From Octopus vulgaris (lineage: Eukaryota), in NCBI GenBank assembly GCA_951406725.2, contig OX597835.1, positions 29,698,001 through 29,762,000 on the forward strand: DNA of 64,000 nucleotides. Reading direction: 5' to 3'. Made by a program: the position numbers and the translations under genes. The notes under the pieces were generated by a model. It did not search any database and had not been told where the DNA came from. It worked only from the letters and a program-made list of their open reading frames with translations. Shown piece after piece: positions 1,181-63,960 of the stretch. Position 1 is the stretch's first letter, and each line of letters starts with the position of its first letter.

Positions 1181-1623
<443 letters not shown>

Positions 1624-1784
1624 ATGATTCACAATGAAGGTGTAGATATAGCGTATTCCGAATGAACAAGGTAATGTAATCAGATGGTAGAAAGTATTTC
1701 GCGAATTAGGTACTCCAAAGTAAGTGGGAAGGTCGGGCGTCCTCTATGTGAGCGTGCGGTAAATAGTAAATTCAAACAATTTTC

Positions 1785-1944
1785 AAAATGTAACCACATG
1801 TGAATTGTTAGCGGTTTTTTTCCCTCCGTCTTCCTTTTCTCTTAGACTTTCCTTTGTCTCCTGTTTCCGAAGAAGAGCTCTGCTCGAAACGTAAAAATCA
1901 CATTTCTTTCCTCGCTTGAGCGTCTGCTAATACTTGACCATGTA

Positions 1945-1947
<3 letters not shown>
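1785..1947 (+). mobile_element. Family C short element (putative PLE pLTR-derived) ending in (TA)n
   Basis: Homologous to 27245-27447(-), 45347-45534 and 22324-22562; carries a hammerhead-like motif. Confidence 0.7.
1863..1897 (+). ncRNA. Minimal type-I hammerhead ribozyme-like motif (variant core)
   Basis: GTTT-CCGAAGA-A-GAGC(TCT)GCTC-GAAA-CG-TA-AAAA; U4 replaced by C. Confidence 0.5.
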
Positions 1948-1988
<41 letters not shown>

Positions 1989-2019
1989 TACGTGTCAAGT
2001 ATATATATATATATATATA

Positions 2020-2216
2020 ACTCTTTTACTTGTTTCAGTCATTTGACTGCGGCCATGCTGGAGCACCGCCTTTAGTCAAGCAAATTGACCCCGGGACTTA
2101 TTCTTTGTAAGCCCAGTACTTATTCTATCGGTCTCTTTTGCCGAACCGCTAAGTGACGGACGTAAACACACCAGCATCGGTTGTCAAGCAATGCTAGGGG
2201 GGTAAACACAGACACA

Positions 2217-2300
<84 letters not shown>

Positions 2301-2463
2301 TACGACAGGCTTCTTTCAGTTTCCTTCTACCAAATCCACTCACAAGGCATTGGTCGGCCCGGGGCTATAGCAGAAGACACTTGCCCAAGATTCCACGCAG
2401 TGGGACTGAACCCGGAACCATGTGGCTGGTTAGCAAGCTACTTACCACACAGCCACTCCTGCT
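2020..2463 (-). mobile_element. SINE family B, full length
   Basis: tRNA-like head, CORE-like CTTGGGCAAGTG motif, central microsatellite, tail GCGGTGCTCCAGCATGGCCGCAGTCAAATGACTGAAAC. Confidence 0.9.
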
Positions 2464-18145: not shown

Positions 18146-18226
<81 letters not shown>

Positions 18227-18227
<1 letters not shown>

Positions 18228-19554
18228 CACAGCTCCTGCAACACTATGACTGGGTGTTAAAACAGCTACTAAATGGCTCAAATGTGGATGTAATATATCT
18301 CGACTTTGCAAAAGCCTTTGATAAAGTCGACCATGGTATGATCTGTCACAAACTGCGTTGTCTCGGCATAGGCGGAAAACTTGGAGAGTGGCTGCACAAC
18401 TTCCTAAAAGACAGAAGACAGGCAGTTGTGAGCAATGGAGCCACCTCCAAGGAAACACAAATAACAAGCGGTGTTCCACAGGGCACTGTCTTGGGGCCAC
18501 TGCTGTTCATAGTGGCCCTTTCGGACATGCCTTCAGTTGCTACGATGGCCACCCTTGCTAGCTATGCAGATGACACAAAAGTCTTCCACACAATACAAAA
18601 CCCTGAAAATATTGCGCATCTGCAACAGGAGTTGGATAAAATATACAGGTGGGCGGAGGACAACAAGATGCAGTTTAATGCAGGTAAGTTCCAGGCCCTG
18701 CGCTACTGGCACACAAAGGTAAACGACGTGCAGACTGGATACACTGGCCCGGGAAGAATTGCAATCCCTGAGTCAAAATCAGTGCGTTACCTAGGCATTG
18801 ACATGAGCAATGATGCATCTTTCCAAGTGCATATTACTAATCTGGTGATAAAATGCAGACGGCTAGCTGGATGGATTCTCCGAACTTTCAGAACAAGAGA
18901 GAAGGAGACACTGATGGTCCTCTGGAAAACATTCGTCCTCAGCCGCTTGGACTACTGCTCCCAACTATGGTCACCACACAATATAAAACTAACAGCAGAA
19001 CTCGAAGCAATTCAGAGAAGCTACACAAAGAAAATCGTCTCAATGCAAAATATCAGCTACTGGGAAAGACTGAAAGTATTAAACTTCTTCTCCCTAGAGC
19101 GGAGGCGGGAGAGATATGCGGTGATATACATCTGGAAAATCCTGGAGGGTCTCGTCCCAAACTTTAGCATTCAAAGTTACCCCAACCGCAGAACGGGGTG
19201 CCACTGCATGGTGCCAAAGATTCCGACATCACCATCAAAATACAGGTCCAGAGAATGCAACAGCCTGGGTTTCAGAGGACCACAGCTCTTTAACATCCTC
19301 CCTAAATGCCTAAGAGACTTACATGATGTGGATGTGGGTTTCTTTAAAACTAAATTGGATCTCTTCTTGTCGGGAGTCCCAGATGAACCTACCTCACGAC
19401 AGGAGACGCAGATGCGGGCAGCAGCATCGAACTCCCTTGTTGATCAAGTGCCACGTATCAGAGGTGGATTCACATATTAGTGTAGCTCATTCAGCGGTGG
19501 TGCCCCAGCATGGCCGCGGCCTTTGGGCTAAAACATTTTTAAGGATTTAAGGAT
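18227..19554 (+). mobile_element. 5'-truncated CR1-group LINE (RT domain to 3' end) in (TA)n
   Basis: Uninterrupted frame to the stop at 19480: YLDFAKAFDKVDH, SGVPQGTVLGPLLF, YADDTK, SRLDYCSQLWSP, SLERRRER; 3' tail (TTTAAGGA)2. Confidence 0.92.
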
Positions 19555-20341: not shown

Positions 20342-22297
20342 AATAGTAAAAAGTGAAAAAACTACAGAAGGCTTAGAGGTTAAAAAATATATATATTTGC
20401 GTCAATGTGTCTGAAGAATATAAAATTTTTTTTTCCTTACAATGACATAATTTAGAAGAAAGACCGGTTTCGCGTTTAGCTTTTCAAATTTCTTACGACG
20501 TTATGTTTATGTTGAATAGAGTAATCGTTATGTTTATGTTTAAAAGAGTTCTAAATAAGGGGAGGTAATGAGTGATTTCTTCCGGTGTAAGGGAGATAAT
20601 CGCTTAAACTTTTTTCCTTTCCCTTGGTGTGAATTTCTCTGTATCAGTATCTTGGCATGGTTAAGTCTGGGCTTGTACTTTTCAATGAAGAATGTTTCCT
20701 TGTTTAGTCTAATTTGTGTTGATGATCCGATAGCACATTGGTAAAATGGAAAGATTAAAAATTGTGGTAGTAGTTGCTTTGCGCATTTCTCAATGTGCTC
20801 ACTAAAAGGTATCATTCTGTATTCTGGGAATGCAATCTGTTGTCGATGCAGTGTGCATCTACGTCTGAGTGATAGTCCCATGGATCCCACGTAGTCTTGG
20901 TGGCAGCCCGAGCATTTTATGACATAAATTATGTTTTCAGAGGCACAAGTAAAATTAGATTTGATCTTGAATTTCTGTTCCTCTTTGAAGAGGAACTCTG
21001 ATCCTTCTAGCAGGTTTGGACATGTTGCACAGTTCGGTCTACCACATTTTTTTACTTTTGCATCCGTAATTTCAGAAAACAATTTTGCCTTTGTGAGAAT
21101 CTTTTTAAGTGATTTAGGTTGTTTGTAGCTTTTAATGATTTGGTGTATGTTTAGAATTTCCTTTAATTTGGGGTCCTTATGAAGTATTGGTAAATTCTGG
21201 GTGATGATGGTGAAGGCTTCTTTGTTTCTGGGGTTGTATGTGGATATGTAAGGTAGTATTTTCGGGGAAGGTGTGTTGTTGTGTTGAACTTTTCTTAAAG
21301 TTTCTATGTTGATTTCTGTTGCACGTCTGATCCCATCCTCTATGAGTTGAGCTGGGTAATGTCTGTCAATTAGGGTGTTTTTGAGTTCTTGCAGTCTAAA
21401 GTTCCTGGTATTTTGTTCTGACACTATTGTGCATATCCTTCTTGCAAGGTTGAAGGGGATGTTTGTTTTAGAGTGTCTTGGGTGGCAAGAATTAAAAAGA
21501 AGGTATTGTTTGGCATCTGTGGCTTTGTAAAAAATGTCTGTTTTATTTTAAGGCTAATTTTTTTAATTAGTATATCCAAGAATGGAAGCTCCTTTTGGTT
21601 GTATTCCATTGTGAACTGTATATTTGGGTTTATGCTGTTCAATAGGTTTTTAAATTTTAGGAGTTTATCTGTGTTTTCATTCCAGAGTATAAAACAATCG
21701 TCCAGGAATTGTTTCCAATTCTCTTTTATGTATTGAGAGAGGGGGTTTCCAAAGATTGATAAAGATTCCTGGTAAATGATTATTTCCATGTAGCCCATTG
21801 TTAAGTTCGCAATGACTGGTGCTGCCCTTGTACCCATAGCAATTCCGGATTTTTGACGGTAAAATGTATTGTCAAACATGAAGTGGTTATTATGTAGGAT
21901 GAATTCAATTGATTAATAATGAATTCTTTACTGATCCTTTTTGGTATTTCTTCCGGAAATTGGTCCAGCCAGAACTGTATTGCCTCTAGTCCATAATTAT
22001 GAGGTATACTGGTATATAAGTTAACTACATCAAATGAAACCAGGATTGTTTCTTCCTTGGCTTTTTTTGGAAGGTGGTTTAACATATCTAAGTCATCTCT
22101 GATATGGCTATCGATATGTTTGAGGAAGGGTTTCAGGAGGATGTCCATAAATAGACTTAGTCTGTGTGTTTCACAGGTTGGGCCAGCTACAATGTGTCTT
22201 AGTTTTAGGTCCCCTGGGTTAGGTGTGTGTATGTATGTCTTTGGTGATTTTTTAATGGCTTCATTTATAATTTGGCTTTTATGAATTTTTGGCAGGA
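20339..22297 (-). mobile_element. Penelope-like element (RT + GIY-YIG), 5'-truncated, frameshifted, flanked by (TA)n on both sides
   Basis: LPKIHK, LVSFDVVNLYTSIP, GIAMGTRAAPVIANL, FLDDCF, LPFLDI, CGRPNCATC linker, NIIYVIKC..C..DYVGS; split over ORFs 21801-22148, 21424-21879 and 20540-21424. Confidence 0.93.
20455..20494 (-). ncRNA. Degenerate hammerhead-like motif in the PLE 3' region
   Basis: AAGAAA-T-TTGAAAA-GC(TAAAC)GC-GAAAC-CG-GTC-TTTCTT: 6-bp stem I, palindromic ACCGGT, core two transitions from CTGAAGA. Confidence 0.5.
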
Positions 22298-22323
22298 TAT
22301 ATATATATATATATATATATATA

Positions 22324-22557
22324 TCCTTTTTTTTCTCTCCTTGTTTTTTCTGTGACCCTTTCTGTAGAAGAGCGTAGGCTCGAAACGTAAAAGACTTTTT
22401 CTATTCCTGAGCGTTATACTAATACATCTGTTTGTTCTTTAATGGTTTCATTTATAATTTGGCTTTTATGAATTTTTGGCAGGATATATATATATATATA
22501 TACTAATACATCTGTTTGTTTTGTACACCACCCGTCTTCGTCTTTTGTATTTTTCGT

Positions 22558-22562
<5 letters not shown>
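22324..22562 (+). mobile_element. Family C-related element abutting the PLE 5' end, interrupted by a duplicated PLE piece
   Basis: Hammerhead-like motif at 22358-22393 and TTCCTGAGCG..TAATAC shared with other family C copies. Confidence 0.7.
22358..22393 (+). ncRNA. Minimal hammerhead-like motif
   Basis: CTTT-CTGTAGA-A-GAGC(GTAG)GCTC-GAAA-CG-TA-AAAG. Confidence 0.55.
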
Positions 22563-26325: not shown

Positions 26326-26560
26326 CAAAATAAGAAAATGGAGAAACACATCCTAATCAATGATCAACTACTAGATAATACCCAATCACATAATTTATTA
26401 AACCACTACATATGAACATTAAGGTCAAACATAATAATATAGAATAAAACAATGTACATGAACGAGTAATATGATACAATAAGTACAGTGTGTATAATTG
26501 AATATATATATATTTATATACATATATATAAATTAGAAAAAAAACACCTTTTATCAATTC

Positions 26561-26812
26561 AAAATGCACAATTAAATTACACCATCTAGAAAATCATATA
26601 TAATAGAATTATCAAAATTAAAATAACAATAATATACCGATGATTAAGTAAATTGCAAAAAAATAATAAAAGCGTATATGTTTGGTATATATATTTGGTA
26701 TGTATACGTTTTTATCATTTTTTTGCAATTTACTTAAACATCGGTATATTATTATTTTTATTTTAATATTTCTATTATATGTAATTTTCTAGATGGGGTA
26801 ATTTAATTGTTC

Positions 26813-26817
<5 letters not shown>
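26561..26817. repeat. Imperfect fold-back inverted repeat in a (TA)n-flanked insert (26322-26819)
   Basis: 26561-26678 versus the reverse complement of 26703-26817. Confidence 0.9.
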
Positions 26818-27087: not shown

Positions 27088-27177
27088 ATAAATGACAGAA
27101 TGGAGTCGAACGACGATTTAACAAAATTCTTTTATTCCTTTATTATTATTTAAATCGTCGTTCGACTCCATTCTTTC

Positions 27178-27183
<6 letters not shown>
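27088..27183. repeat. Fold-back inverted repeat, 34-bp arms
   Basis: ATAAATGACAGAATGGAGTCGAACGACGATTTAA / TTAAATCGTCGTTCGACTCCATTCTTTCATTTAT. Confidence 0.9.
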
Positions 27184-27226
<43 letters not shown>

Positions 27227-27244
27227 AATATATATATATATATA

Positions 27245-27447
27245 GTTAATCCAAACATGAAAACACAAAGAGAAAACACAACAACGCGAGGACGTGAAAC
27301 AAGTATAGTATTATTGGACGCTCAGGAAAGAAGGAGGGTTTAACGTTTCGAGCGGAGCTCTTCGTCAGAAACATAGGAAAAGGAAAGATCCAAAGAAAGG
27401 AAGACGGAGGAAAAAAAATCGCCAACGGTACACACGCGGTCACATTT
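27245..27447 (-). mobile_element. Family C element (best copy), flanked by TA-rich repeats
   Basis: Homology to 45347-45534 and 1785-1947. Confidence 0.8.
27338..27372 (-). ncRNA. Minimal type-I hammerhead ribozyme motif
   Basis: GTTT-CTGACGA-A-GAGC(TCC)GCTC-GAAA-CG-TT-AAAC: intact CUGANGA/GAAA core, stems I and II, palindromic AACGTT in place of stem III. Confidence 0.7.
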
Positions 27448-27539
27448 TATACATATATATAGAGAGAGAGAGACAGGTAGAGAGATACATACGTACATAC
27501 ATATAAAATTTATATGTCGAAGCATGTTCACATATATAC

Positions 27540-29025: not shown

Positions 29026-30312
29026 CGAGGGGCGTTCAATAAGTAATGGCCCTGATCCACTTCCCATAGTAGCAGAGCAACAAAACTTGGCACAGTTATT
29101 AGACTTTTTCTACATAAGAACCACCCAGAGTTACGCATTTCTCCCATCGTTTGATGCAGCTCTGAAGACCGTTTTTGTAGAAGACCTCAGCTTGGTCCTC
29201 CAACCACGACGTGACTTCAGAAATCAAGGCTGCATCATCTGGGAAACGCTTTCCTTTAAAAAAACATGGCTGGGAAGAGGTGAAAATCAGAGGGTGCAAG
29301 GTCAGGAGAGTAGGGGGATGGAGGAGGAGTTCATAGCCGCACGCCTGTGCTTCTGATCTGGCGACACGCGAGTTGTGGACCGGAGCGTTGTCCTGCAAGA
29401 GGAGGATGCCTTTGCTGATATTGCCCCGCTTCTTGATTTTGATTGCTTCTCTTAATTTCCTCAAAAGTGAAGCATAATAGGTTCCTGTAATTGTGGCACC
29501 CTTTGCCAGGAAATCTGTCATCACTACTCCGTTCTGGTCCCAGAAGACTGTGAGCATGACCTTGCCAGCAGAGGGCTGCACCCTTGCCTTCTTTGGAGGA
29601 GGTGAGTCACCATGTGTCCACTGCATTGACTGGGCTTTGGTCTCTGGATCATAGTGATTGACCCAGTTTTCACCCTGTGTAATCAGTCTTTTGAAAAATT
29701 TTGACTCATCTTCTTGGCACATCTTCAAATTCATCCTCGAGCAATCGACGAGTTCTTGCTTCTGGAAAGATGTGAGCAACCTGGGAATCCATCTGGCAGA
29801 CGTCTTTTGCATATGCAAAGGGTCATGAATGATAGTTTCCACAGACCCAGTACTAATCTTGACCTCATGGGCTATTTGGCGAATAGTTATGCGTCGATCT
29901 TCCAAAATGGCAGCCTCAACTTGACGGACAGATGCCTCATCAATGGCAGAAGTGGGGCGACCAGATCTGGGAGCTGTTTCCACAGAGTTCCGACCATGTT
30001 TGCATTCACGATGCCAGCGTTTTACAAGGTCATATGATGGGGCATCATCACCATAAGTTACTTTCATTTCATCAAAAGTCTCCCGTGGTGTGCGTTCTTT
30101 CAAATACAAAAACCGGATCACTGCTCGACACTCAACAGGCTCCATTTCACACTTGACTCAGTTCAAACACCTGTAAATCAGAAACCACAATTAGTTCAGA
30201 GCTGTAATTTGCCACTTAATCTATAGAGATATAAATAATTGCGCATGCAAAATTTCAGCTAGATCAAATAACTGCAAGTGGGTCAGGGGCATTACTTATT
30301 GAACGCCCCTCG
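29026..30312 (-). mobile_element. Full-length mariner element with TA TSD
   Basis: About 37-bp TIRs CGAGGGGCGTTCAATAAGTAATG(G/C)CCCTGA(T/C)CCACTT; TA on both sides. Confidence 0.95.
29099..30145 (-). pseudogene. Mariner DD34D transposase, open frame but catalytically damaged
   Basis: WIPRLLT and QDNAPVH present. The first catalytic D reads G (ITQGENWV), and YSPDLAPSDF lies in a shifted frame between compensating indels. Confidence 0.85.
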
Positions 30313-45346: not shown

Positions 45347-45529
45347 ATACCTGTCCTCCCTTCTCGGGATCTTTCCTTCTCCTATGTTTCCGACGAAGAG
45401 CTCCGCTCGAAACGTTAAAACCTCCTTCTTCCCTTCTTTCCTGAGCGTCCAATAATACCTTATTTGTTCCACGTCCTCGCGTTGTTGTGTTTTTTTTTTG
45501 GGGGGGGGGTTGTGTTTTCTTGTTTGGAT

Positions 45530-45534
<5 letters not shown>
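45347..45534 (+). mobile_element. Family C element with hammerhead-like motif at 45386-45420
   Basis: GTTT-CCGACGA-A-GAGC(TCC)GCTC-GAAA-CG-TT-AAAA; homology to 27245-27447. Confidence 0.78.
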
Positions 45535-48135: not shown

Positions 48136-48446
48136 CATATCACAAAATGGCTGACGGTTAGTAAGGAGAGACACAAATAAGAAAGAAGAAAACAAAGGAC
48201 CACTGATGCGGTCACAGGAGTGTGACGAAAGAACTCTGGCCGAAATAAGATTAAGATTAATGTAAAAAATAAATAACACTGAAGCAAAATAACACCAAAT
48301 ATATAGTGCGTGTGCTTTTATTGGCTAAACTGGCAAAATGACCATTCCGAAATATAACAATATATATGCATACTTGTATATATATGCATATATGCATATA
48401 TATGTGCATATACGCATACATATATGCATATGAGTATATATATGCA

Positions 48447-60537: not shown

Positions 60538-60603
60538 CCTTTTCTCTCTCTCTTTCCTTTTTTGCACTTTCTTTTCGTGTGTAAAACACAATTTTATCGG
60601 AAC

Positions 60604-63600
60604 ATGCTCAGAATAGGCAGTATAAATGTATGTGGCTTGGGGTCGCCTTGGAAACAAGGCTACCTGTTAAATGACATCAAGTCACTAAATCTGAATATCA
60701 TAGCCATCAGTGAGACCAGACTCCACAGCTCGTGGGCACTCCAGCACAGTTTCGGTACACATTTCAACATTTATTTTTCTCCGTGTCTACCGAGAATGGG
60801 CGGAGGTGGCACCGCGGTGCTTCTCCGGAAGAGTCTGGATCTCAAAGTAAGAGCAATTTCCCTAGACCCGGAGGGTAGGCTGGTCGTTTTGGATGTCGAT
60901 GGCAGCAATGAGTGTGCTTTTCGACTGATAGCAGTTTATGCTCCGTCCTTAACAGGCCGACCAGATTTCTTTCGACGTCTAGAGTCTTTCATGGGAACGT
61001 CTCGTCCTTTACTTTTAGTGGGGGATTGGAATGCCACCCTGGACACGCATCTAGACTACGTGAGCAGAGATAGCAATAGAAGGGGATACAAATGCCTTAA
61101 AGACCTGCTCAGACGTTTCCAACTGTCTGACAGGTACCGACTGGACCACCCGAATGTGCCAATGTGGACATGGAGTAACCGCATCGGGTCGTCCAGATCA
61201 TACTTAGATAGAGTATTCTGTAGGACAATTGATAAAAATAGTGTAGGTTGTACACAATTTCATATAGTCAGTTACACAGATCACAAGTTTGTGACTTGTA
61301 CACTTGACTTAGATAAGACACATAGGCAGGGTCCTGGTTACTGGAAACTGAACGCGTCTTTTACAGGTTTACAGGGACAGGATCAGCACATTAGTTAAGA
61401 GAGCTTTGACGGGTACCATCATCAACAACAGATGGTGGTATGCCCTAAAAAAAGCAATTAAAGCAGAATCAGTCAGATACAGTAAAGCCCTAGCATTAGA
61501 CCGAAATAGAATAGAGGGAGAATTAGTTAAGGTTTTAGAAGAGGCACTGGCATCGCGTCCAACGTGCTGGCGGCGAGATTGGCCCTCGACTAACACCTCA
61601 ACGCCAAACACGAGGGATGCGTTATCAGAGCTAGGATGCGTGCTCTGAGGAACGAAGGAGTTGGAGCCGCCCAAGAGGCCCGAGTGGTGGAGACGCAACG
61701 AGGCAACAGAGCCACCATCAAGTCTCTTATAGATGAACAGGGGCGCGAATTGCTCGAGCCTAAAAGGATGTGTGGGGCTTTTCAACAACACTTCACCCAA
61801 CTGTTTGGGACAAGTGGTGGGTCAGAACGCAGAGTGGACTTTAGTGCCTACCTGCATGCCTTGCCACGACTCTCAGCAAGAGAGGTGGAGTCTTGTGAAA
61901 GGCCTATCACAGCTGCGGACGTACAGGATGCGATGGGGGGGGGCGCGAGAGACAAGTCACCAGGCTTGGATGGTCTGCCCTACGAACTTTATTATCATAT
62001 ACCAGACTTGTTTGGAGGCGTTTTGGCAGCTGTCTACTGCAACTGGCAGCAAAACGGGAGTATTCCTGCTTTTGTAAAGCGAGGAGCAGTGGCACTGATT
62101 AAGAAAGACCCAAACAAGGGGGACGTCATAGATAATTTCAGGCCCATCACTCTGCTCAACGCAGATTTGAAAATTTTGGCCAAGGTGTTAGCCGAGAGGT
62201 TGGCGCTTGTCATCAAGAAACTAATCGACAAGGCGCAAACATGCGCCGTGCCGGGTAGAAGTATTCATGACAACCTCCATCTGATGCGCTACATCATAGA
62301 CAGGGTAGTTAAGAATCCTGGCATGGGTGGGGCGCTGATCAATTTGGATCAATCAAAAGCTTTCGATAGGGTAGACCAACACTACTTGGAGGCTGTCCTT
62401 AAAGCGGCTGGTTTCGGTCCAGTTTTCCGCGGTTGGATCGCTGCCTTATACAGCGGCATCCGCTCAGTAGTTCGCGTAAATGGTCATCTATCCAGACCTT
62501 TTAACATCATGCATTCGGTTCGTCAGGGATGCCCTCTCTCATCGCTGCTGTATGTATTGACTCTTGAGCCACTACTGCGGAAACTGGCGACGCTGAGGGG
62601 CATCCCACGAGAGCTGGGATGCGGGAGGAGCGTGTCTGCATACGCGGATGACGTCACCGTCATAGTGTCGAGCTACCAGCACATCGAGCTGGTCGGCGAG
62701 ACACTAAAAGAATACGAAGCGGTAACGGGAGCAAAAATTAACCGGGAAAAGTCAGTGGGCTTGCGGCTCGGCACCTGGATAAGCAGGCCCATGCCGTCCA
62801 ACAGCGTCTCCATCGTGGGACGCTGGACGGACGGACCGGTTAAATTGCTCGGGGTCTGGTTCGGTCCGGACCTCCAAATGGAGAAGAACTGGGGCGAGAT
62901 AACAACTAGGGTGGCTACTCTCACCCAGAAATGGGCTGAGAGAAAGCTATCCCTAAAAGGTCGAGCGGAGGTGGCGAACGCGTACATCGCATCCGTCATC
63001 GAGTATCGTCTGACCGTCGTGCCTTGTCCCGAGCCTACCATCACCAAACTGGAACGTATACTCTTTCGCTTCTTGTGGGAGGGAAACGTTCCGATGGTTA
63101 GGCGATCCATTTGCTGTCAACACCCGCTAAATGGAGGGCTGGGCATGCCGTGGTTGATGATGCGCAGACATGCGCTGAGACTGCGACATCTCCGGCGCTT
63201 CATAGACAACGGTGAACAGGTGTGGTCGCCTTTTGTGCGGCGCGCTTTCCCGCAGCTCGTCTCCTTGGACGAACTACAGTCATGGATCAAGCAGAGACCG
63301 AGGCTAGGCGAATGGCACCGCGAGTGTCGCGTTGCTCTCAAGCAACTCTGCCGTCCGGGATCGAACTTGTGCGACTCCATCTCAACAAAGGCATTCTATA
63401 GAGGATTAGTGAAGGGGAGGTGCGACGACGAACTCGGGCAGAGTCTGGGCGTCGATGAGGAACACCTGACCCGCCTGTTCAGGACAACTTTCGAGCCGGG
63501 ACCTATGAACAATCACCAAAGATCCCTGGCCTGGCAGTGCTATCGAGAAGCATTACCTGTTCGGGATAAGCTCTACAGACACGGTCCCAGACACACTGGA

Positions 63601-63960
63601 CCGACTTGCCCGAGATGCGGTCAGAGCGACGAAACCGTTCTGCACGCACTCGTGCAATGTCCAACCATTTCAGACCTGTGGGCTTATGCCGAACGGCTGC
63701 TGTCACGTGTGGGACGAATCCGCCTATCGGCCGAGTCTATCGTGAGAATTGCTCCGCCCCCTTCCCTCAACCGGGAAGGCAAGGCAGTTTTCATCGTACT
63801 GGTGGCCATGGTGAAAGAATGTGTGTAGTGGACCCGAGCGAAAGGATTAGAGACAAACACTTACCTCTCTGGCCAATCGCTCATCAACTTTTTCAAGTAC
63901 CACTTGAAAAGGAAGGTGAGAATGGAGAGGGAAGTTTTGTCTCGCGAAAGATTCAAAAAA
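60604..63960 (+). pseudogene. LINE ORF2 (APE endonuclease + reverse transcriptase), disrupted
   Basis: SINVCGL, ISETR, VYAP, GDWNA, YLDRV, TDH, WKLN; KSPGLDG, FRPITLLNADLKILAK, DQSKAFDRV, VRQGCPLS, YADDV, CPRC..ETVLHALVQC. Frameshifts at about 61360 and 61555; in-frame TAG at 63826-63828. Confidence 0.92.

What the first reader, a model, noticed from the sequence alone, without database searches (positions are those of the whole stretch)
27338..27372. Family C: minimal hammerhead with covariation across four in-window copies
Stem I is GTTT/AAAC here but CTTT/AAAG at 22358-22393, a compensatory change. Stem II GAGC/GCTC is invariant while its loop varies (TCC, TCT, GTAG). GAAA-CG-TH is constant, with palindromic ACGT able to form stem III only as a dimer. 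The core varies (CTGACGA, CCGACGA, CCGAAGA, CTGTAGA) and always has an extra A, so atypical cores may be family features rather than decay.
Basis: partly seen in the sequence, partly recalled or inferred. Interest (0 to 1): 0.7.

Follow-up and report, generated by a model that had tools for sequence, protein, structure and literature searches.

The report
Penelope-type minimal hammerhead, inherited U4C core
This is a known kind of tiny RNA motif, predicted to cut itself, carried by a very abundant short repeat in an animal genome that likely travels with Penelope-like jumping genes; the modest twist is that a core change reported to weaken such ribozymes (U4C) is present in a third to a half of the family and so is likely inherited rather than decay.

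Summary
The four copies are real (1863-1897+, 22358-22393+, 27338-27372-, 45386-45420+; none expected by chance). The motif matches the published minimal hammerhead of Penelope-like element (PLE) pseudo-LTRs; the extra A, palindromic stem III stub and dimer model are all in Cervera and de la Pena 2014. The same motif follows PLE RT/GIY-YIG sequence in loci from other animals. Here it sits in a 190-330 bp repeat lying between (TA)n tracts; its own autonomous partner was not found. The claimed in-window covariation is not significant: one changed pair, broken in 2 of 4 copies (125 of 500 shuffles match it), and stem II never varies. Stem I does covary across families. U4C (CCGA) is a family feature: 35-49% of contig depth in four runs against at most 12% for CpG decay, and a separate clade in a coral-type PLE family. 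A6U (CUGU) occurs in one copy and is unsupported as a family feature. U4C is known from a viroid; I did not find it reported for PLE hammerheads, but could not read one key paper. Cleavage is untested. Modest variant of a known system.

The parts
27338..27372 (-). Copy c3 (the finding): minimal type I hammerhead, canonical core CUGACGA + extra A, stem I 4 bp, stem II 4 bp, ACGU palindrome; predicted cut after GUU, between 27342 and 27341
   Evidence: Sequence; fits published consensus
27245..27452 (-). Whole c3 repeat copy: pyrimidine-rich 5' part, hammerhead, about 90 bp 3' part that ends at a (TA)n tract
   Evidence: loose ends run into TA/AT-rich sequence at 27445-27448 in 4 of 4 runs
27367..27367 (-). 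Core position 4: U in this copy, C in 35.0, 35.8, 49.4 and 46.8% of contig depth in runs X1, X3, X8, X10
27228..27243 (.). (TA)n tract at the 3' end of c3 (likely insertion target)
27318..27324 (-). Downstream 7-nt motif TGAGCGT, invariant in all four copies; can pair with the 3' strand of stem II or overlap a distal stem I extension
   Evidence: role not tested
45347..45533 (+). Copy c4, same subfamily and same 3' end as c3, shorter 5' end; hammerhead at 45386-45420 with U4C core; (TA)n on both sides
1621..1946 (+). Copy c1, diverged subfamily, longest 5' part; hammerhead at 1863-1897 with U4C core; (TA)n on both sides
22325..22561 (+). Copy c2, most diverged; hammerhead at 22358-22393 with A6U core; interrupted by a local duplication at about 22438-22501
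20540..22296 (-). 5'-truncated, frameshifted Penelope-like element (RT, C-x4-C-x2-C linker, GIY-YIG). Neighbour of c2 in the opposite orientation; shows that a PLE of the likely mobilising type is in this genome, but it is not family C's own element
20456..20494 (-). That PLE's own, different hammerhead-like motif (U3-A8 core, 2-bp stem II, ACCGGT palindrome, 6-bp stem I with a bulge)
   Evidence: no DNA similarity to family C

Best explanation
The four copies belong to a very abundant short repeat family that lies between (TA)n tracts and carries a minimal hammerhead motif of the kind published for Penelope-like retroelements; the family is likely a non-coding derivative of a PLE pseudo-LTR, likely copied by a PLE reverse transcriptase/GIY-YIG nuclease acting in trans, and the hammerhead is predicted to cut only when two copies pair or a protein assists. 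Steps: (1, inferred) a tandem or read-through source locus is transcribed. (2, predicted from published dimer work) two ACGU palindromes pair to build stem III and the RNA is cut after GUH, slowly and probably with PLE protein help. (3, inferred) PLE protein nicks (TA)n and reverse-transcribes the RNA, giving a fixed 3' end and variable 5' end (shown for c3 versus c4). (4, predicted) single dispersed copies such as 27338-27372 fold into an inactive hairpin in which the core pairs with CGUUA, so they would not cut host transcripts. U4C arose in source elements and was amplified (shown by frequency here and by a clade in the coral-type family); it likely leaves low but sufficient activity, as reported for a viroid. 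The A6U core of c2 is most likely decay of a single copy.
For: Motif equals the published consensus 'U-rich NNN CUGANGAH G..C GAAAN palindrome NUH NNN'. The Acropora digitifera PLE row differs from my coral-type loci at one stem II base. With a pattern that left core positions 3-7 free, 63 of 84 low-GC metagenome loci had CTGA or CCGA there, against 0 of 36 high-GC loci (the GC split was mine, made after seeing the data). In L009 and L076 the motif follows PLE GIY-YIG or RT sequence on the same strand; the CCGA loci L010 and L101 show similarity to the L009 nuclease end 41 nt upstream (E 1e-15, 8e-14). Stem I covaries across 16 hand-picked rows: 16 two-sided changes, score 0.251, 0 of 500 shuffles, best slid control 0.142. 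4 of 4 copies have (TA)5 or longer within 250 bp on both sides, against 11% of random positions (threshold chosen afterwards). 22,942, 18,318, 10,882 and 5,721 contigs laid on the 201-bp stretch. U4C at 35-49% of depth against 0.5-12% at the 11 CpG positions tabulated. In the coral-type family CCGA/CTGA needs 3 changes on a tree of downstream flanks, against a shuffled mean of 16.0, minimum 9 (47 of 61 loci). Predicted monomer folds trap the core.
Against: No PLE reading frame was found next to c1, c3 or c4, so the mobilising partner is inferred. The PLE beside c2 is antisense and has a different hammerhead. No tandem copies in the window (spacing 5-20 kb), so the dimer source is not seen. In-window covariation is not significant. 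Rfam gives no hammerhead hit at gathering score or at E up to 10. Unconstrained two-copy co-folding gives non-hammerhead duplexes as lowest-energy forms. Saturation mutagenesis of another hammerhead found low activity for CUGA-turn changes other than the C3-G8 swap (PMC9901934). In an in vitro PLE system hammerhead mutants did not reduce insertion (PMC11167929), so amplification of U4C need not mean it cuts. Contig depth is not a copy count and rows are related.
Confidence: 0.7

Rival explanations
1. The copies are not a non-autonomous family but 5'-truncated 3' ends (solo pseudo-LTRs) of an autonomous PLE whose full copies lie elsewhere in the genome.
For: Published min-HHRs are mostly single motifs 'probably related to truncated PLEs'. 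5' ends vary: 243, 34, about 80 and 40 bp upstream. The same motif follows PLE coding sequence in L009, L076, L010.
Against: The listed loose ends at 27445-27448 run into TA/AT-rich sequence in 4 of 4 runs (652 further loose ends not shown). The 243 bp upstream of c1 has no significant match to 61 PLE proteins or their profile.
Confidence: 0.25
2. Cleavage is dispensable for this family: U4C cripples the ribozyme and spread because the motif is kept only as a folded or protein-bound element, or is a passenger.
For: Hammerhead mutants did not affect PLE insertion in vitro (PMC11167929). Naiad PLEs proliferate without canonical hammerheads (PMC8557442). U4C 'considerably decreases activity in vitro' (PMC3088659).
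Against: In the coral-type family the other free core positions stay fixed (C3 52, G5 58, A6 58 of 61) while position 4 splits 31 C to 29 T. In one search no change at C3, G5 or A6 is listed at 2% or more (6 rows hidden). The same substitution recurs in two unrelated lineages, and it is the one reported as tolerated in vivo in a viroid.
Confidence: 0.3
3. All atypical cores are post-insertion decay of a CUGA family.
For: Dispersed single copies are under no obvious selection, and catalytic G8 and G12 decay at CpG sites at 2-11%. A6U is seen in one copy only.
Against: U4C is a non-CpG transition that creates a CpG, yet reaches 35-49% in four runs of three organism labels, and it tracks a flank-defined clade in the coral-type family. 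This rival remains likely for A6U alone.
Confidence: 0.05
4. The motif is a chance look-alike inside a tRNA-derived SINE (GCTCGAAAC is one mismatch from a recalled polymerase III B-box consensus).
For: Short abundant repeat; B-box resemblance (recalled consensus, no call).
Against: ARAGORN finds no tRNA; long T runs upstream would stop polymerase III (sequence, established knowledge); the whole motif matches PLE hammerheads of other animals, with free core positions conserved.
Confidence: 0.02

Closest known systems
Minimal hammerheads (min-HHR) of metazoan Penelope-like element pseudo-LTRs (Cervera and de la Pena 2014, PMC4209133; read parts 1-2 of 4 and supplement file 2 part 2)
   Same: Type I topology, short stem I, G10.1-C11.1, extra base between 9 and 10.1, palindromic 15.2-16.2 with no stem III, U-rich 5' flank, thousands of dispersed single copies, dimer model. 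The Acropora row is nearly the same sequence.
   Different: A large share of this family has C4. All 44 rows seen in part 2 and the rows seen have U4 (the reported core variant is U3-A8). Octopus does not occur in the supplement text. No coding partner is shown for this family.
Non-LTR retrozymes of animals (PMC7229834, passages; bioRxiv 10.64898/2026.07.22.740005, part 1 and passages)
   Same: Short non-coding repeat with a type I hammerhead, proposed PLE derivative, monomers dispersed through the genome.
   Different: Retrozymes are defined by tandem units, mostly with canonical hammerheads and circular RNA. Here no tandem unit is in the window, the hammerhead is minimal, and circular RNA was not tested.
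Natural U4C hammerhead of a viroid (as cited in Perreault et al. 2011, PMC3088659, passages)
   Same: Same core substitution in a natural replicating RNA, with reduced in vitro activity but sufficient in vivo function.
   Different: There a variant of a canonical viroid ribozyme; here a major subfamily state of a genomic minimal hammerhead, recurring in two animal lineages.
Neptune/Nematis-type EN+ PLEs with microsatellite bias (Craig et al. 2021, PMC8557442, passages)
   Same: (TA)n-type insertion context; a PLE with C-terminal GIY-YIG and CX2-5CxxC linker is in the window and in L009, L076.
   Different: Family C copies carry no reading frame; clade was judged from the linker motif only, no tree was built.

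Membership tests
PLE minimal hammerhead (min-HHR) | Core CUGANGA ... GAAA ... NUH | tested here: met
   Met exactly by c3; c1 and c4 carry U4C, c2 carries A6U
PLE minimal hammerhead (min-HHR) | One unpaired base between 9 and 10.1, and G10.1-C11.1 | tested here: met
   4 of 4 copies; published feature
PLE minimal hammerhead (min-HHR) | No stem III; palindromic 15.1-16.1 stub | tested here: met
   ACGT in 4 of 4 copies
PLE minimal hammerhead (min-HHR) | Stem I pairing supported by covariation | tested here: inconclusive
   Not significant within the window (125 of 500); present across families (0 of 500, related and hand-picked rows)
PLE minimal hammerhead (min-HHR) | Located in the pseudo-LTR of a PLE | tested here: inconclusive
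   Shown for the same motif in L009, L076, L010, L101; not shown for family C itself
PLE minimal hammerhead (min-HHR) | Self-cleavage as a dimer or with protein help | not testable with these tools
   Needs a bench assay
Non-LTR retrozyme | Two or more consecutive tandem units with hammerheads | tested here: not met
   Four dispersed single copies in the window; rest of the genome not held
Non-LTR retrozyme | Circular RNA intermediate | not testable with these tools
   Only contigs were available; the RNA label of X10 is a guess
Canonical type I hammerhead (Rfam models) | Rfam covariance-model match | tested here: not met
   No hit at gathering score in the window or at E up to 10 around c3
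tRNA-derived SINE | tRNA-like head | tested here: not met
   ARAGORN 0 genes in the window

The most novel reading that the evidence does not exclude
U4C is a repeatedly selected, functional core variant of PLE minimal hammerheads. It arose independently in this family and in a coral PLE family, both with C7 and a U2.1-A1.1 pair, where U4 can pair with A1.1 and lock the core in an inactive hairpin. C4 weakens that trap (about 1.1 kcal/mol in the coral pair) and may work in U4/C4 mixed dimers or with PLE protein. CUGA-based searches would then have missed a large share of genomic hammerheads in these animals.
Probability: 0.25. Interest if true: 0.55.

Novelty: new variant of a known kind. Interest (0 to 1): 0.32.

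Why it matters
The motif itself is ordinary. What is useful is a natural experiment on an open question, whether PLE hammerhead cleavage is needed for retrotransposition (left open in PMC8557442 and PMC11167929). Sister subfamilies with U4 and C4 both amplified to high copy number in two animal lineages. If C4 dimers do not cut, cleavage is dispensable in vivo. If they do, the hammerhead core consensus used in genome scans should be widened to CYGA.

Tried and rejected
Rfam: no hammerhead hit. Viral contigs: 0 matches. Genome contigs: 1 match, L121, in bacterial sequence without the core, judged chance. 36 of 120 metagenome loci were high-GC and lacked the core; treated as chance matches. One search used a structure off by one column on the 3' side of stem I and is superseded. 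Idea that c2 is the inverted pseudo-LTR of the adjacent PLE: rejected, since that PLE's 3' end has another hammerhead and no DNA similarity to family C. Idea that the c1 upstream part encodes a nuclease end: no significant match. Idea that U4C reflects A-to-I editing (A>G on the + strand): it appears in runs guessed to be DNA, and the 11:1 excess of A>G over T>C fits base composition (p 0.13). Folding energies of monomer regions are not unusual (z from -1.44 to +0.85), so thermodynamics gives no independent support. The 'trap relief' idea is clean only in the coral pair (gap 5.3 to 4.2 kcal/mol); in c3 versus c4 the gap rose from 3.9 to 4.6 because c4 also lost a stem I pair. No RNA holder on record was listed for the stretch searched; this says nothing on expression. 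Literature: searches found U4C only in PMC3088659. Lunse et al. (RNA Biol, PMC5785218) and Arkhipova et al. 2017 (PMC5850863) are not held, the supplement of PMC7229834 with 16 Acropora millepora hammerhead families could not be read, and I saw only part 2 of 3 plus search hits of the PMC4209133 supplement; any of these may already show CCGA cores. PMC13282606 (Octopus vulgaris repeats; passages and supplement search) has no mention of hammerheads.

Full report
Setting. The window is microsatellite-rich animal DNA with LINE, mariner and PLE fragments. No whole genome is held. Named homologues of its PLE protein are molluscan (Mytilus, Saccostrea, Octopus bimaculoides at 57% identity). A cephalopod host is my guess from this and from recall of such repeat landscapes; it is not shown.

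Observation. The shared pattern occurs 4 times against 0 in 100 shuffles, and two profile searches found no fifth copy. Cores, loops, the extra A and the ACGT palindrome are as described. The covariation claim is weak. The outer stem I pair is G-C in c3, C-G in c2 and G.A in c1 and c4; the other seven pairs never vary; 125 of 500 shuffles score as high. A better sign of constraint is that the motif is 79-91% identical between diverged copies while flanks are 54-67% (5 of 6 pairs), though the alignment is anchored on the motif.

What it is. Cervera and de la Pena 2014 (PMC4209133; parts 1-2 of 4 read) define minimal hammerheads of PLE pseudo-LTRs with exactly these traits: a base between positions 9 and 10.1, G10.1-C11.1, palindromic 15.2-16.2, no stem III, thousands of single dispersed copies, low cleavage as dimers and none as monomers. 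Their consensus line (supplement file 2, part 2 of 3) fits c3 base for base. I scanned metagenome contigs with a pattern that fixed stem II and GAAACGT but left core positions 3-7, position 17 and stem I free (120 loci returned of about 400 estimated). Of 84 low-GC loci 37 had CTGA and 26 CCGA at the core; none of 36 high-GC loci did. The largest group (61 loci, loop TAAC) is nearly identical to the Acropora digitifera PLE row of that paper, so I call it coral-type. In L009 the motif follows a GIY-YIG end and in L076 a full RT-linker-GIY-YIG frame, on the same strand. Across the 4 window copies and 12 rows that I picked from 49 distinct segments, stem I shows 16 two-sided changes, with 0 of 500 shuffles as high and slid controls lower. 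Rows are related and stem II was fixed by the pattern, so this is supportive, not a probability.

The repeat family. Each copy lies between (TA)n tracts (4 of 4 within 250 bp on both sides; 11% of random positions). c3 and c4 share the same 3' end and differ in 5' extent, as expected for target-primed reverse transcription (inference). Contigs of four runs laid on c3 (27250-27450, 80% likeness) numbered 22,942, 18,318, 10,882 and 5,721, and the listed loose ends at the element's 5' side run into TA/AT-rich sequence. So this is a very abundant short family; four copies in 64 kb is the only direct density figure. The runs were found with the neighbouring PLE stretch, and one may be the window's source. 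No coding frame was found beside c1, c3 or c4. c2 sits in the (TA)n at the truncated 5' end of a PLE (20540-22296, minus; RT, C-x4-C-x2-C linker, GIY-YIG), but antisense to it, and that element has its own U3-A8 hammerhead-like motif near 20456-20494 with no similarity to family C. Craig et al. 2021 (PMC8557442, passages) link this linker to microsatellite bias, which makes such an element a plausible mobiliser. That step is inferred.

Are the odd cores family traits? For U4C, yes. At 27367 the C4 allele holds 35.0, 35.8, 49.4 and 46.8% of depth in runs of three organism labels, whereas CpG sites, including catalytic G8 and G12, change at 0.5-12%. U4C creates a CpG and so cannot be CpG decay. 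Contig depth is no copy count, but the CpG sites are an internal control. In the coral-type family position 4 is C in 31 and T in 29 of 61 loci while C3, G5 and A6 stay at 52, 58 and 58. On a tree built only from downstream flanks (47 of 61 loci; 12 with other cores and 2 with short flanks left out) the CCGA/CTGA label needs 3 changes against a shuffled mean of 16.0 (0 of 1000 as low). Two CCGA loci follow PLE nuclease-like sequence. So source elements with C4 amplified in two lineages. For A6U there is no such support: one copy, not listed (whose threshold may exclude the c2 subfamily; 6 rows hidden), and absent from the coral-type set.

Mechanism. Shown: anatomy, abundance, (TA)n context, inheritance of U4C. 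Predicted: monomers fold into an inactive hairpin that pairs the core with CGUUA, and cleavage after GUH needs two palindromes to form stem III or protein help. A PLE hammerhead was shown to cut only with its protein, and catalytic mutants did not reduce insertion in vitro (PMC11167929, passages). U4C lowers activity in vitro but permits viroid infectivity (PMC3088659, passages), and CUGA-turn mutants are generally poor (PMC9901934, passages). I favour low but sufficient activity in source transcripts, because only position 4 varies and it varies the same way twice. 'Cleavage is dispensable' is the main rival (0.3).

Novelty. The motif, extra A, palindrome, dimer model and PLE link are published. 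I did not find U4C reported for PLE hammerheads, but Lunse et al., whose title announces numerous small variants, was not available, nor was the Acropora supplement. I rate it a modest new variant of a known kind, interest 0.32. The bolder reading, that C4 is selected because it loosens an inactive fold or works in mixed dimers, rests on two lineages and a 1.1 kcal/mol prediction in one of them; probability 0.25.

Noticed in passing
window 20456-20494 (-): Hammerhead-like motif with U3-A8 core, 2-bp stem II, 6-nt palindrome ACCGGT and a bulged base before the core, just 3' of the PLE reading frame; probably that element's own ribozyme.
   Followed up: partly
window 48200-48239 (+): A second, unrelated hammerhead-like motif with a 6-bp stem II (GTCACA/TGTGAC) in a short segment between TA/TG microsatellites; core has one departure or an alternative register; single copy in the window.
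   Followed up: partly
window 27318-27324 (-), 1917-1923, 22408-22414, 45442-45448 (+): TGAGCGT is invariant 13-21 nt downstream of all four hammerheads although flanks are about 60% identical; it is complementary to the 3' strand of stem II and could act as an off-switch, or mark a protein-binding site.
   Followed up: partly
window 27388-27392 with 27315-27319 (-); 1843-1847 with 1922-1926 (+): Possible distal extension of stem I at the same 5' spacing in c1, c3 and c4, with one two-sided change (G-C to A-U) between c3 and c1; one event only, and in the lowest-energy fold only for c3.
   Followed up: partly
window 22251-22514: About 60 bp of the PLE's RT sequence plus (TA)n is duplicated inside copy c2 (22251-22324 and 22438-22501), with a 12+ bp repeat of the c2 tail around it; looks like a local duplication followed by deletion.
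   Followed up: partly
window 1930-2003: The 3' end of c1 is an inverted repeat of about 17 bp around an (AT)n tract (fold-back structure).
   Followed up: no
window 27088-27188: 100-bp imperfect inverted repeat directly across the (TA)n from c3; single copy in the window.
   Followed up: no
window 26561-26817: 260-bp, 85% inverted repeat between TA tracts, preceded at about 26330-26410 by a short frame ending in a LINDQL-like motif; may be the end of another PLE-type element.
   Followed up: no
window 60562-63828 (+); 18152-19480 (+); 29099-30145 (-): LINE-type endonuclease plus RT frames, a second RT fragment, and a mariner-type transposase with intact-looking frame.
   Followed up: no
window 2020-2400 and at least 12 other places: A separate, very frequent multi-part SINE-like repeat broken by microsatellites.
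   Followed up: no
L035, L042, L075: Coral-type loci in which the 5' core is replaced by other sequence while stem II and the 3' half remain; upstream letters resemble the reverse complement of the motif's 5' part, suggesting an inversion junction.
   Followed up: no
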